Assembly: GCA_050260475.1 (NCBI GenBank)
Contig: JBLNCG010000061.1
Span: 79,559 to 143,558 of the forward strand
Direction: 5' to 3'
Length of the DNA: 64,000 nucleotides
Source: Bacillota bacterium
GTDB lineage: Bacteria > Bacillota > UBA4882 > JBLNCG01
Shown here piece after piece: positions 36,001-39,000 of this stretch (its first letter is position 1; each line of letters begins with the position of its first letter). A program made the position numbers.

Positions 36001-39000
36001 TGCGTTGTTACATTAATGCCGGGTCTTGCCGCTAAATATAGTGTACGGCTACCATTAGGGCAATCGATATTTAGTGGCAAGACGTAAAATTCGCATAACA
36101 ACGCAAATTGCTCATTTTAAAAACAACAAGCCCGTCCCTGGTTTAAATTATGGATACGGGTTTGAATTTATGACAATAAATTTTATGAACTATAATTCAG
36201 CGCTAGATATTTAAATATATTATCATAAACGCAAGCGATTCGGATATGGGAATCATCATTACTTCACTGCTTTCCCTCATTTTCCTTCGATACAGGCGCC
36301 GCATGATCCAGGCCCTTTTTATCGAAAACGTAAATCGTTTCTCCGCAGGTAGGGCACAACACCTCCACATTGCGGCCGTTTAAGACCATCTCTTCGATGC
36401 AGAGGTTTTCCTGGCAGTTGGGGCAGTTAAGCTCATAAAACGTATTCTCCTCCTCATTATTCTCAGTGATTTCAAACTGGTAAAAATCCTCTTCAAGCTG
36501 GGACAAATCCTCATCCATGCTCTGCAGATAATCCTCAAGGTCGTTCAACCGGGCTTCCAAGGTCTCGCACGTTTCCGCGACATCGCCGCAATATTTCAGA
36601 AGACCTTCCCAGATCAATTTGGTTTTTTCATCCGGCTGAAAGTCCGCCCCGCTTATCAAACCTTGCAAATACGCGGCGCTTTTCGTCAGCTTGGCCATGT
36701 TTACGATCCTTTCGCTTAAAATATCCGGAATAATCGAATAATGAAATCTAATTCATGCATTTACTTATAGTATATGATAACCCAGGTCGCGATATCCTAT
36801 ACAGGATTGAGGTATTTAATCACCGTTTTATATGGAGCAATTGCGTTGTTATGATGATGTTACGTCTTGCCGCTAAATATCGATAGCCTAATGGTAGCCA
36901 TACAATATATTTAGCGGCAAGACCTTATATTAAGGTAACAATGCAATTGCCTCATCGGAAGTTATTTGTTGACTCTCCGGATATAACCTCCGGTCCGGGT
37001 GTCTACGGCGATGACATCGCCGATGTTGACGAAAAGCGGAACATTTACGGTGAGCCCCGTGGAAACTTTGGCCGGTTTGGTGCCGCCCGTGGCCGTATCC
37101 CCTTTAAATCCCGGTTCGGTCACGGTTACTTCCAAATCCACGGTGGTAGGCAGATCCACGCCCATGGTCTGGCCCTGATAAAACTGGATCATCACCACCA
37201 TATTTTCAATGAGGTAATAGACCACATCCCCCAATTTATCCCTGGTGAGGGAGATCTGCTCGTAATTCTCCTTGTCCATGAAAAAGTAATCATCGCCCGA
37301 ATTATAGAGATATTCCATCTCGCGGGTCTCAATGTGGGCCCGGGATACCTTCTCCCCCGCGTTGAAGGTCTTTTCCAGCATGTTCCCAGTGCGGATGTTT
37401 CTGAGCTTTGTGCGGACAAAAGCCGCGCCTTTCCCCGGTTTCACATGCATAAATTCCACGACCTGGAAAATCTCCCCGTTGATCTCCAGAGTAAGACCGG
37501 TTTTAAGATCATTGACGGAAATCATGCGATCACTCCTTTATATACAAGCAAATCAAGTACAGGTAAATTATATTAAAAAAAACCGTGATTGTCCACACTT
37601 TTCTGCCTTTTATCAAGCTCCGCCCCGGGATAAAGGGATTTTCTTTTATATCTCCCATAGATCGCGCGGAATGGAATTTAATGAAAACGCGCCTTCTTCA
37701 CCGATAACAGCCATATCCTCGATCCTTACCCCGCCCCAGCCGGAAACATATACTCCGGGTTCCACGGTTACCACAGTTCCAGCGGGCAGCGGCCGGTCTT
37801 CCGTCACGGGCGACAAATGCGGTTCCTCGTGAATCTCCAGGCCGACTCCATGCCCGGTTCCATGACCGAAACGCTCCCCATGGCCTCCTGTGCAAATCAC
37901 CCGGCGCGCCAGGGCATCTGCTTCCCTTGTCCCCATCCCGGCCCTTAAGCCCGACATACATTCCTCCTGGGCTTTTAATACCAGACCGTGAATCTCTTTT
38001 TGCCTTTCATCAGCCCGGCCCAGCACCACAGTGCGGGTCAAATCGGCATTATATCCCGACAGGCGCGCTCCGCAATCTATAATCACCAGATCACCCTTCT
38101 TCAATTCCGCATCGGAAGCCCGCCAATGCGGCAGCGCGCTGCGGTTCCCGCCGGCGATGAGGGTCTCGAAAGCGAATCCTTCGGCCCCCTTAAGCCTCAT
38201 ACGGTATTCCAATTCGGCCGCGGCCCGTTTTTCCGTCATCCCCGGTTTAAGTATGCCCAGAAAGTCCATAAAAGCCTCTTCCGTGGTACGCAAGGCCTTT
38301 CCTATCATATCTCTTTCGGCGTCATCCTTGGTCATTCTCATTTTTTCCAGGAAAGTGCACGGAACTATATGATCCGCGCCGAACGCCCCGTTCAATTCCG
38401 CATAATCCGCGTAAGCGATATGGCGGGATTCCACGCCGATCCTTTTAGGGTTTAATTTTTTACAGGCGTTGATCACCGAGGGAAGAAACATTCCCTCCTG
38501 TTTAACCAATTCGTAGCCCGGGGCCTGCCCGGCGGCCTGCTTAAGATACCGGAAATCCGTAACCAAGAGCGCCCTTCCGGAGGTGATGATGAGGGCCCCG
38601 GAGGTGCCGTAAAATCCGCTCAGGTAATAGCGATGGATTTGGCTTAAAACCAGCAGGAGGTCCAATTCAGCCTTTTCCATCAATTTGCGCGTTCTCTCCA
38701 GTCGATCTTTCACCAGAATACCTCCCGGCGCTTTCCTTTAACGGGCTACTTTGTTTCTAAACAATTCACCAGGGCATCCAGCGCCATAAGATACCCGAAC
38801 CACCCGAAACCGCTGATCTGCCCCGCCACCACCGGGGCAATCACTGAGTGGGCGCGAAATTCCTCCCTTTTGTATATATTCGAAAGATGCACCTCTACAA
38901 CGGGTAAATTCACGGCGGCCAAGGCATCCCGCACGGCGATGCTATAATGGGTGAATGCCGCGGGATTGATGATAATTCCGTCGCATTCTTTCCGCGCCGC

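What the first reader, a model, noticed from the sequence alone, without database searches (positions are those of the whole stretch)
36835..36953. Family A: abundant ~115-bp nested-palindrome intergenic repeat with compensatory stem changes
Copies found:
- five full copies at 1134-1250, 32152-32264, 35996-36113 (inverted), 36835-36953 and 44913-45028
- truncated copies at 20774-20818, 59541-59577 and 62929-62990
- a possible vestige near 8451-8470

All copies lie strictly between genes.

Architecture:
- outer arms GCAATTGCGTTGTTA and TAACAACGCAATTGC
- inner arms ACGTCTTGCCGCTAAATAT and ATATTTAGCGGCAAGAC
- an asymmetric apical segment CGATAGCCTAATGGTAGCCATAC

Differences between copies are often compensatory: GCTGAATA with TATTCAGC in A2, and GCCA with TGGC in A5. 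This argues for selection on a folded structure rather than mere decay.

At roughly one copy per 8 kb the genome could hold hundreds. I do not recognise it as BOX, RUP, ERIC, Correia or a classic REP. It could be a MITE, a REP-like transcript stabiliser or terminator, or a structured RNA family.
Basis: seen in the sequence. Interest (0 to 1): 0.65.

Follow-up and report, generated by a model that had tools for sequence, protein, structure and literature searches.

The report
New palindromic intergenic repeat family
A roughly 118-base hairpin-forming DNA repeat is scattered between housekeeping genes of an uncultured, deep-branching spore-forming bacterium, and it looks like a new family of an ordinary kind of small parasitic mobile element rather than a new type of functional RNA.

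Summary
The repeat is real. The window holds:
- five full copies of 117-123 nt
- one internally deleted mini-copy
- two right-half copies
- one decayed vestige

All nine lie between genes, five in one orientation and four in the other. Each full copy folds into a long hairpin on either strand (RNA -30 to -54 kcal/mol).

But only 4 paired positions show double changes, against 19 unpaired cells, so decay dominates.

I found no match in Rfam, E. coli genomes, plasmids, phages, 185,579 species-representative genomes, JGI metagenomes or viral contigs. The host's DNA polymerase I is at most 50% identical to any other protein in the database.

The only other DNA from this organism is three short-read contigs. 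Three of their six ends fall in family copies, which hints at more copies elsewhere in the genome.

Flanks suggest a short AT-rich target duplication (permutation p 0.01-0.09), which is not conclusive. The window holds no transposase. The gene bracketed by two inverted copies is a conserved zinc-ribbon protein, not a REP-associated tyrosine transposase (RAYT).

Best reading: a lineage-specific, MITE-like or REPIN-like non-autonomous mobile element, so a new member of a known kind. Genome-wide copy number and the mobilising enzyme could not be tested.

The parts
1133..1255 (+). Full copy A1. It lies between secG (1326-1568, minus) and a chemoreceptor-like gene (214-963, minus).
   Evidence: Covariance model 115.5 bits. 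RNA hairpin -30.6 kcal/mol, z -3.1. Gene context.
8444..8567 (-). Decayed vestige. The right-terminus 15-mer is nearly intact and the rest is heavily diverged. It lies between the cytidine deaminase gene and a PAP2/DAGK-type gene.
   Evidence: Outer arm with 1 mismatch. Global alignment score 48 against a shuffle mean of 30 and maximum of 46.
20769..20821 (-). Internally deleted mini-copy T1. Both termini are kept; the inner stem and apex are lost. It starts about 2 nt after the coaE stop codon and abuts a family B fragment.
   Evidence: Covariance model 30.4 bits, E 1e-5. ssDNA hairpin -9.6 kcal/mol, z -3.4. In a relative, coaE and the SLT gene are 1 nt apart.
32151..32267 (+). Full copy A2, inside the spoIIIA operon between spoIIIAF and spoIIIAG. 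It ends 2 nt from the AG ribosome-binding site.
   Evidence: Covariance model 108.9 bits. RNA hairpin -43 kcal/mol. Gene identities.
35992..36113 (-). Full copy A3, the only inverted full copy. It lies 20 nt upstream of the spoIIIAA start codon.
   Evidence: Covariance model 119.2 bits. RNA hairpin -43.2 kcal/mol. Sequence read.
36835..36954 (+). Full copy A4, the finding's own coordinates. It lies 8 nt after the efp stop codon and 137 nt upstream of the CD1247-like zinc-ribbon gene.
   Evidence: Covariance model 131.8 bits. RNA hairpin -54.5 kcal/mol, z -9.6. ssDNA hairpin -29.4 kcal/mol, z -7.8.
44912..45031 (+). Full copy A5, between a prepilin-like gene and an orphan 660-aa gene. It is flanked by GTATAT on both sides.
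   Evidence: Covariance model 124.7 bits. Flanking direct repeat found.
59538..59577 (-). Right-half copy T2, 47 nt upstream of the pilB start codon.
   Evidence: nhmmer E 5.7e-5, model positions 91-131.
62929..62992 (+). Right-half copy T3, 2 nt after the stop codon of a penicillin-binding-protein gene. Its terminus forms a perfect 7-bp mini-hairpin.
   Evidence: nhmmer E 1.1e-9, model positions 71-131. Fold. A short-read contig ends at its outer edge.

Best explanation
Family A is a lineage-specific family of small, non-coding, non-autonomous mobile elements of the MITE type.

**Structure (shown)**
- Each unit is about 118 bp.
- It consists of two arms of about 45 nt in inverted orientation around an asymmetric apex of about 25 nt.
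- Each arm has a 17-nt terminal repeat, a poorly matching 13-nt middle and a 17-nt inner repeat.

**Mechanism (inferred)**
- A transposase encoded elsewhere in the genome recognises the arms and inserts copies into AT-rich (TATA-like) intergenic DNA, probably making a 4-6 bp target duplication.
- Only insertions between genes survive.
- Copies then decay by point mutation, hairpin-mediated internal deletion (T1) and loss of one half (T2, T3, the vestige).
- Because nearly all flanking genes are co-oriented and closely spaced, most copies are probably carried in read-through mRNA as a hairpin of -30 to -54 kcal/mol. This may incidentally affect mRNA processing or stability, but I regard that as a side effect and not the reason the family exists.

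**What is shown:** the copies, their structure, their strictly intergenic position, both orientations and the range of decay states.

**What is inferred:** mobility, trans-mobilisation, the target duplication and the RNA side effects.

I put the general claim (selfish mobile repeat rather than host-functional RNA) at about 0.75. The specific MITE-with-target-duplication mechanism is at about 0.5.
For: **Family is real and dispersed**
- Nine copies in 64 kb, far above chance.
- All are intergenic, in a window that is about 90% coding, and they sit in 9 of the 31 gaps of at least 60 nt.

**Signs of turnover rather than maintenance**
- Orientation is 5 plus and 4 minus, while 63 of 71 crude gene calls are on the minus strand.
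- The decay states form a graded series. Full copies are 74-84% identical to each other. There is a mini-copy that keeps only the termini, two half copies and a vestige.

**Signs of insertion**
- Copies sit in junctions that are otherwise tight: inside the spoIIIA operon 2 nt from a ribosome-binding site, and 2-8 nt after stop codons.
- coaE and the SLT gene are 1 nt apart in a relative (L037), but 119 nt apart here, with T1 plus a family B fragment between them.
- Same-copy flanks resemble each other more than cross-copy flanks. GTATAT occurs on both sides of A5 and TCCTA on both sides of A2. Permutation p is 0.012 for k=4, 0.055 for k=5 and 0.09 for k=6.

**Hints of more copies elsewhere**
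- Short-read contigs from run SRR24035587, 100% identical to the window, end inside A4, inside A5 and at the edge of T3. That is the behaviour expected if the same sequence also occurs elsewhere in the genome.

**Other**
- The element has no coding capacity: stop codons interrupt every frame in most copies.
- Two other palindromic or dispersed repeat families (B, C) occur in the same window, so this genome tolerates such elements.
Against: - The target duplication is not consistent in length (3-6 bp). It is absent at A3 and A4, and the boundary choice inflates the signal.
- No transposase, and no element with matching ends, exists in the 64-kb window. No more of this genome could be reached.
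- The inner stem is as conserved as the termini (87% against 86%). There are 3-4 symmetric double changes. A simple model based on terminal inverted repeats (TIRs) does not need either of these, and both fit a hairpin-recognising mechanism better.
- No empty site or close relative was available to prove insertion.
Confidence: 0.55

Rival explanations
1. A REPIN-like element. The unit is a doublet of inverted terminal motifs that folds as a single-stranded DNA hairpin. It would be mobilised without target duplication by a single-copy HUH/Y1 transposase (of the RAYT or IS200/IS605 type) encoded elsewhere. Half copies would be defunct 'singlets'.
For: - The size (about 118 nt) and symmetric organisation, with conserved ends and a less conserved centre, match the REPIN description. 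[quoted passage not shown]
- Here, stems are 85-87% identical against 70% for the apex.
- There are 3-4 symmetric changes.
- ssDNA hairpin of -29 kcal/mol, z -7.8.
- All three partial copies keep the same (right) end.
- The right terminus AAGG(C/T)AACAACGCAATTGCCTT is itself a small hairpin.
- The target duplication is inconsistent.
Against: - The one gene bracketed by inverted copies (A3 and A4) is a CD1247-N-terminal plus zinc-ribbon protein with no HUH motif, not a RAYT.
- The left terminus does not form its own hairpin.
- The termini are AT-rich and lack the GC-rich REP stem.
- Flank similarity gives some evidence for a target duplication.
- REPIN-associated RAYTs are, to my knowledge, essentially proteobacterial (from memory, and the abstract of PMC5581495 listed).
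- The rest of the genome could not be searched.
Confidence: 0.22
2. A host-functional cis-acting RNA element (mRNA stabiliser, processing site or attenuator), maintained by selection on its folded structure in intergenic parts of operons.
For: - Very stable hairpins, z down to -9.6.
- Positions inside operons and directly after stop codons.
- Stems more conserved than loops.
- 4 covarying pairs against 1.6 in shuffles.
Against: - Orientation is 5:4 although the flanking genes are all on one strand.
- The G-U-dependent pairing of the middle segment exists only in the element's plus orientation. For 4 of the 5 full copies that is the non-transcribed sense.
- In the main stems, G-U-type mismatches show no strand bias: 3 against 6 cells.
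- No U-tract terminators.
- 19 unpaired cells, and deleted, half and decayed copies.
- No Rfam match above noise.
- Absent from every other genome or metagenome scanned.
Confidence: 0.1
3. A dispersed protein-binding DNA site or promoter carrier. It could be a nucleoid-protein or regulator site at the palindromic GCAATTGC termini, or an apical mother-cell sigma-factor -10-like box (CATACAnT) that drives sporulation-specific transcription.
For: - GCAATTGC is a perfect 8-bp palindrome at the termini.
- CATACA(A/C)T is present in A4 and A5, with one mismatch in A1 and A3.
- A3, the one inverted full copy, points this box toward spoIIIAA.
- The match to the sigma consensus rests on my memory and was not confirmed in the literature searches.
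Against: - The box is intact in only 2 of 5 copies, and it is mutated in the one copy (A3) where it would make sense.
- In the other four copies it would fire antisense to all neighbouring genes.
- Sigma-70-type matches inside copies are only 9/12, and the region as a whole is about two standard deviations above the shuffled background.
Confidence: 0.05

Closest known systems
Bacterial MITEs of the long-hairpin type (Correia elements of Neisseria, RUP of Streptococcus pneumoniae, ERIC/IRU of enterobacteria), as reviewed in PMC10969869, PMC3184786 and PMC2229807
   Same: - 100-160 bp, non-coding, with long imperfect inverted arms that fold into one hairpin.
- Many dispersed copies restricted to intergenic DNA, often co-transcribed with neighbouring genes.
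- Both orientations occur, along with size variants that have internal deletions.
- AT-rich (TA-type) insertion sites.
   Different: - No sequence similarity to anything in E. coli genomes (which carry ERIC and REP), plasmids or phages.
- The host is a deep-branching sporulating Bacillota.
- The target duplication is not firmly established and no parent insertion sequence is known.
- The arms are bipartite (outer and inner repeats separated by a non-matching middle), not a single terminal repeat.
REPINs (REP doublets forming hairpins) with their RAYT transposases (PMC3116915, PMC3337134)
   Same: - A hairpin unit of about 110 nt with conserved ends and a looser centre.
- Symmetric or compensatory changes across the hairpin.
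- Decayed single-end remnants.
- Strictly extragenic.
   Different: - No RAYT in the window, and the gene flanked by inverted copies is unrelated.
- The termini are AT-rich, and only the right one is self-complementary.
- There is some evidence for a target duplication, which REPINs lack.
Stem-loop sequence families catalogued across bacterial genomes (PMC2267715)
   Same: A family of repeated intergenic sequences predicted to fold as a stable stem-loop, found by exactly this kind of survey.
   Different: That catalogue covers sequenced isolates. This family occurs in an uncultured lineage whose DNA polymerase I is at most 50% identical to any other protein in a 5.8-billion-protein collection.

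Membership tests
Bacterial MITE | Small (under about 500 bp) and non-coding | tested here: met
   Copies are 117-123 nt. Stop codons interrupt the frames in most copies, and no gene was called there in the public contigs.
Bacterial MITE | Terminal inverted repeats | tested here: met
   Arms of 40-49 nt at 75-80% complementarity, with outer 16-17 nt termini.
Bacterial MITE | Target-site duplication of fixed length flanking each copy | tested here: inconclusive
   GTATAT flanks A5 on both sides and TCCTA flanks A2 on both sides; matches are weak or absent at A1, A3, A4 and T1. Permutation p is 0.012-0.09 depending on length.
Bacterial MITE | Multiple dispersed copies in one genome | tested here: met
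   Nine copies in 64 kb. Genome-wide number could not be tested. Contig breaks in copies hint at more.
Bacterial MITE | A parent insertion sequence or transposase with matching termini in the genome | not testable with these tools
   No transposase among the annotated genes of the window. The rest of the genome is unavailable.
REPIN / REP-RAYT system | Two inverted conserved end motifs that form a hairpin with a less conserved spacer | tested here: met
   Pairwise identity is 86% for the outer stem, 87% for the inner stem, 76% for the middle and 70% for the apex. Hairpins form on both strands and as ssDNA.
REPIN / REP-RAYT system | Each end motif is itself a short REP palindrome | tested here: inconclusive
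   The right terminus forms a 7-bp hairpin, perfect in A2 and T3 and with one mismatch in A4 and A5. The left terminus does not.
REPIN / REP-RAYT system | A cognate RAYT (HUH/Y1) gene, typically flanked by the repeats | tested here: not met
   This was tested within the window only. The one gene flanked by inverted copies (36264-36698) carries a CD1247 N-terminal domain (E 3.5e-16) plus a CxxC zinc ribbon and has no HUH motif. Elsewhere in the genome this could not be tested.
Described RNA families (Rfam 15) | A match at the family's gathering score | tested here: not met
   No hits in the window at gathering thresholds. In E-value mode, the only hits are generic long-hairpin matches to plant microRNA precursors, at 33 bits against a 140-bit threshold.
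ERIC / REP / BIME of enterobacteria | Sequence similarity to the family consensus | tested here: not met
   blastn with word size 11 against 5,426 complete E. coli genomes gave no match at E up to 1.
Integron attC site | R''/R' core sites (RYYYAAC / GTTRRRY) bounding promoterless gene cassettes, all in one orientation | tested here: not met
   Read directly from the sequence. The outer arms GTTGTTA / TAACAAC do not fit the core consensus (recalled from memory). The flanking genes are housekeeping operons (spoIIIA, efp, secG, coaE), and orientation is mixed.

The most novel reading that the evidence does not exclude
Family A may be a REPIN-like population of single-strand hairpin replicators. 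It would be maintained by a domesticated Y1/HUH transposase in a deep-branching, possibly diderm, spore-forming Bacillota lineage. This would extend the REPIN-RAYT type of long-term host-element association well outside the Proteobacteria. The conserved inner stem and the symmetric substitutions would then reflect selection on the hairpin as the transposition substrate.
Probability: 0.15. Interest if true: 0.6.

Novelty: new member of a known kind. Interest (0 to 1): 0.3.

Why it matters
In practice, the family explains why short-read assemblies of this organism fragment at these points, and it gives a marker for the lineage.

Biologically, it shows that a very poorly sampled branch of spore-forming Bacillota carries several families of hairpin repeats packed into tight housekeeping operons (family A, plus at least families B and C). 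One copy sits 2 nt from a ribosome-binding site inside the spoIIIA operon.

If the element proved to be hairpin-mobilised (REPIN-like), or to shape mRNA fate, it would broaden where such systems are known. As it stands, it adds one more family to a well-known class and does not open a new question.

Tried and rejected
**1. Finding more copies or relatives**
- Three exact or gapped consensus patterns were scanned against the species-representative genomes.
- One pattern was scanned against JGI metagenomes and two against viral contigs.
- Every hit was a chance or coding match when re-scored with nhmmer or the covariance model.
- L012, with two hits, is a duplicated coding segment.

**2. Reaching the rest of the genome**
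- Exact-protein look-ups returned only three Logan contigs from run SRR24035587, all lying inside the window, or nothing.
- A search with the element's open frame as a peptide found nothing.
- A search with the lineage-specific 660-aa protein, hoping for paralogues on other contigs, found only the protein itself.

**3. Nearest relatives by DNA polymerase I (50% identity)**
- L037-L039 carry no family A copy.
- The Lachnospiraceae loci found through SpoIIIAA (37-40% identity) carry none either.

**4. RAYT hypothesis for the gene bracketed by A3 and A4**
- Rejected. The gene encodes a CD1247-like zinc-ribbon protein.

**5. Terminator hypothesis**
- No stem followed by a U-tract at any copy.

**6. 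Promoter hypothesis**
- Only 9/12 sigma-70-like matches lie inside copies; the region's total (26) is about two standard deviations above the shuffled mean of 17.3.
- The sigma-E/K-like box could not be confirmed from the literature available.

**7. attC site**
- Rejected on core motifs and gene content.

**8. Other checks**
- No paper mentions the run accession.
- Comparing intergenic spacing in distant relatives by tblastn was uninformative, except for the coaE-SLT junction.
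Full report
**Is it there?**

Yes. The outer arm GCAATTGCGTTGTTA occurs 15 times at up to 3 mismatches, against 1.9 expected. The inner arm occurs 8 times against 0.03 expected. The five full copies sit at the stated coordinates, one of them inverted. 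A profile built from them scores each at E 1e-36 to 1e-40, and a covariance model scores them at 109-132 bits.

The three 'truncated' copies are real but of two kinds:
- 20769-20821 keeps both termini and has lost the inner stem and apex. It is an internally deleted mini-copy in minus orientation.
- 59538-59577 (minus) and 62929-62992 (plus) are right halves.

The vestige at 8444 is a one-mismatch copy of the terminal 15-mer. It lies within a stretch that aligns weakly, over about full length, to the reversed consensus.

**Where is it?**

The window is a housekeeping stretch of a spore-forming Bacillota chromosome. It carries secDF, secG, queA/tgt, era, ybeY, phoH, yqfD, polA, mutM, coaE, nusB, accBC, spoIIIAA-AH, efp, a Xaa-Pro peptidase, aroQ/aroB and a type IV pilus cluster. 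G+C is 52.5% and nearly all genes are on the minus strand.

All nine copies are intergenic, in 9 of the 31 gaps of at least 60 nt. By inference, the chance of that with about 10% non-coding DNA is below 1e-8.

Several copies sit in very tight places:
- A2 lies inside the spoIIIA operon, 38 nt after spoIIIAF and 2 nt before the AGGAG ribosome-binding site of spoIIIAG.
- A3 lies 20 nt before the spoIIIAA start codon.
- A4, T1 and T3 begin or end 2-8 nt from a stop codon.
- In a relative, coaE and the SLT gene are 1 nt apart. Here they are 119 nt apart, with T1 and a fragment of another repeat between them.

**Anatomy**

The consensus is GAGCAATTTGCGTTGTTA - TGAYGATTTTACG - TCTTGCCNCTAAATAT - apex of about 25 nt - ATATTTAGCGGCAAGA - CCTGGNATTAAGG - TAACAACGCAATTGCCTTT.

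- The outer and inner segments are good inverted repeats.
- The middle segments match poorly, and pair only through G-U in the element's plus sense.
- Every full copy folds into one long hairpin on either strand as RNA (-30 to -54 kcal/mol, z -2.6 to -9.6). A4 also folds as single-stranded DNA (-29 kcal/mol, z -7.8).
- The right terminus is itself a small 7-bp hairpin. The left terminus is not.

**Covariation**

Of 43 consensus pairs, 91% of cells are paired. Four pairs show a change on both sides, against 1.6 +/- 0.9 in shuffles (reached in 5 of 500). Seven cells are one-sided wobble changes and 19 cells are unpaired.

One of the four double changes gives only a G-U pair in the weak middle segment.

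Stems are more conserved than unpaired parts (85% against 65%; outer 86%, inner 87%, apex 70%). So there is some constraint on the arms, but decay dominates. In the main stems, G-U-type mismatches show no strand bias: 3 cells against 6.

Symmetric changes in a DNA palindrome can also arise by arm-to-arm template switching. This is established knowledge on quasipalindrome mutagenesis and was not tested here. Covariation alone therefore does not show RNA-level selection.

**Orientation and signals**

- Orientation is five plus and four minus, against uniformly minus-strand neighbours.
- No copy is followed by a U-tract.
- Promoter-like matches inside copies are only 9/12; the region's total of 26 is about two standard deviations above the shuffled mean of 17.3.

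These points argue against a strand-specific cis-RNA role.

**Mobility evidence**

The graded series (full, deleted, half, vestige), the 74-84% pairwise identity, the insertion into tight junctions and the mixed orientation are together the signature of a proliferating and decaying element.

Flank analysis:
- GTATAT directly abuts both ends of A5, and TCCTA abuts both ends of A2.
- In a permutation test, the flanks of one copy match each other better than the flanks of different copies. The p-values are 0.012, 0.055 and 0.09 for 4-, 5- and 6-mers.
- Lengths are inconsistent, and A3 and A4 show nothing.
- Flanks of different copies also resemble each other (TATAT-like), which suggests an AT-rich target.

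**Copy number beyond the window**

This could not be measured. The only other DNA from this organism is three Logan contigs of run SRR24035587, all 100% identical to the window. Their six ends fall as follows:
- inside A4
- inside A5
- at the outer edge of T3
- inside the family B palindrome at 13032-13152
- inside a paralogous ATPase repeat
- at one unexplained point

. Ends falling in family A suggest that identical k-mers occur elsewhere in the genome. This is an inference, not a count.

**Who is the host, and is the family known?**

- DNA polymerase I has no relative above 50% identity among 5.8 billion proteins.
- SpoIIIAA relatives among the species-representative genomes are 37-40% identical.
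- A 660-aa neighbouring protein has no homologue at all.
- Rfam gives nothing at gathering score, and only generic hairpin noise in E-value mode.
- blastn finds nothing in plasmids, phages or E. coli genomes.
- Pattern scans of genome, metagenome and viral collections returned only chance hits.
- The nearest relatives' polA regions carry no copy.

The family is therefore undescribed and, as far as can be seen, confined to this lineage.

**Mobilising enzyme**

No transposase is among the window's annotated genes. The gene bracketed by the inverted pair A3/A4 was the obvious RAYT candidate. It is a CD1247-N-terminal plus zinc-ribbon protein without an HUH motif.

**Verdict**

This is a new family of a well-known kind: small palindromic intergenic mobile repeats.
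- The MITE-type reading (terminal repeats plus a short AT-rich duplication) is favoured.
- A REPIN-like, hairpin-recognising mechanism remains a serious rival because of the conserved inner stem, the symmetric changes and the one-ended remnants. These features match the REPIN description in PMC3116915.
- A host-functional RNA is unlikely.

Interest is modest.

Noticed in passing
window 13032-13152; fragments at 13003-13017, 20749-20768, about 25888-25905 and 36809-36828: A second palindromic repeat family (B). It is a 121-nt element with termini AACCGGTGATTAAATAC, and its ssDNA hairpin is -31.6 kcal/mol (z -7.6). Terminus-like fragments lie directly beside family A copies T1 and A4 and beside family C copy C1, as if the repeats nest or share insertion hot spots. 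A short-read contig of the same organism ends inside the full element.
   Followed up: partly
window 25717-25885 (+) and 53705-53873 (-): A third dispersed repeat family (C) of about 170 nt, about 87% identical over its core. It has an internal GGGTTRCCCTCTCTTTC / GAAAGAGAGGG hairpin. One copy lies upstream of polA and the other downstream of the prepilin peptidase gene. No Rfam match.
   Followed up: partly
window 48443-50323 (-), within the 45122-59494 pilus cluster: A secretin (PF00263) with two LysM domains sits in a type IV pilus cluster (pilM, pilC, pilT, pilB, prepilin peptidase), in a genome that also has spoIIIA and yqfD. A secretin implies an outer membrane, so this may be a diderm sporulating Bacillota lineage.
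   Followed up: no
window 42877-44859 (-) and 46158-48353 (-): Two paralogous large proteins (660 and 731 aa) next to prepilin-like genes. The 660-aa one has no homologue at E below 1e-5 among 5.8 billion proteins except itself.
   Followed up: partly
apex of family A copies, for example window 36897-36904 (A4) and 44974-44981 (A5): The apex contains CATACA(A/C)T, which from memory resembles the -10 box of mother-cell sporulation sigma factors. A3, the only inverted full copy, would point it at spoIIIAA, but carries CGTACACT there. The motif is intact in only 2 of 5 copies. The consensus was not confirmed from the literature available.
   Followed up: partly
window 36264-36698 (-): A conserved CD1247-N-terminal plus CxxC zinc-ribbon protein sits between efp and spoIIIAA, bracketed by family A copies in inverted orientation. 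It looks like a composite element but is two independent insertions around a resident gene.
   Followed up: yes
window 57292-57341 and 58503-58552: A 50-nt stretch, 94% identical, is shared by the two adjacent T2SSE-type ATPase genes (pilT-like and pilB-like). A short-read contig breaks at this point too.
   Followed up: no
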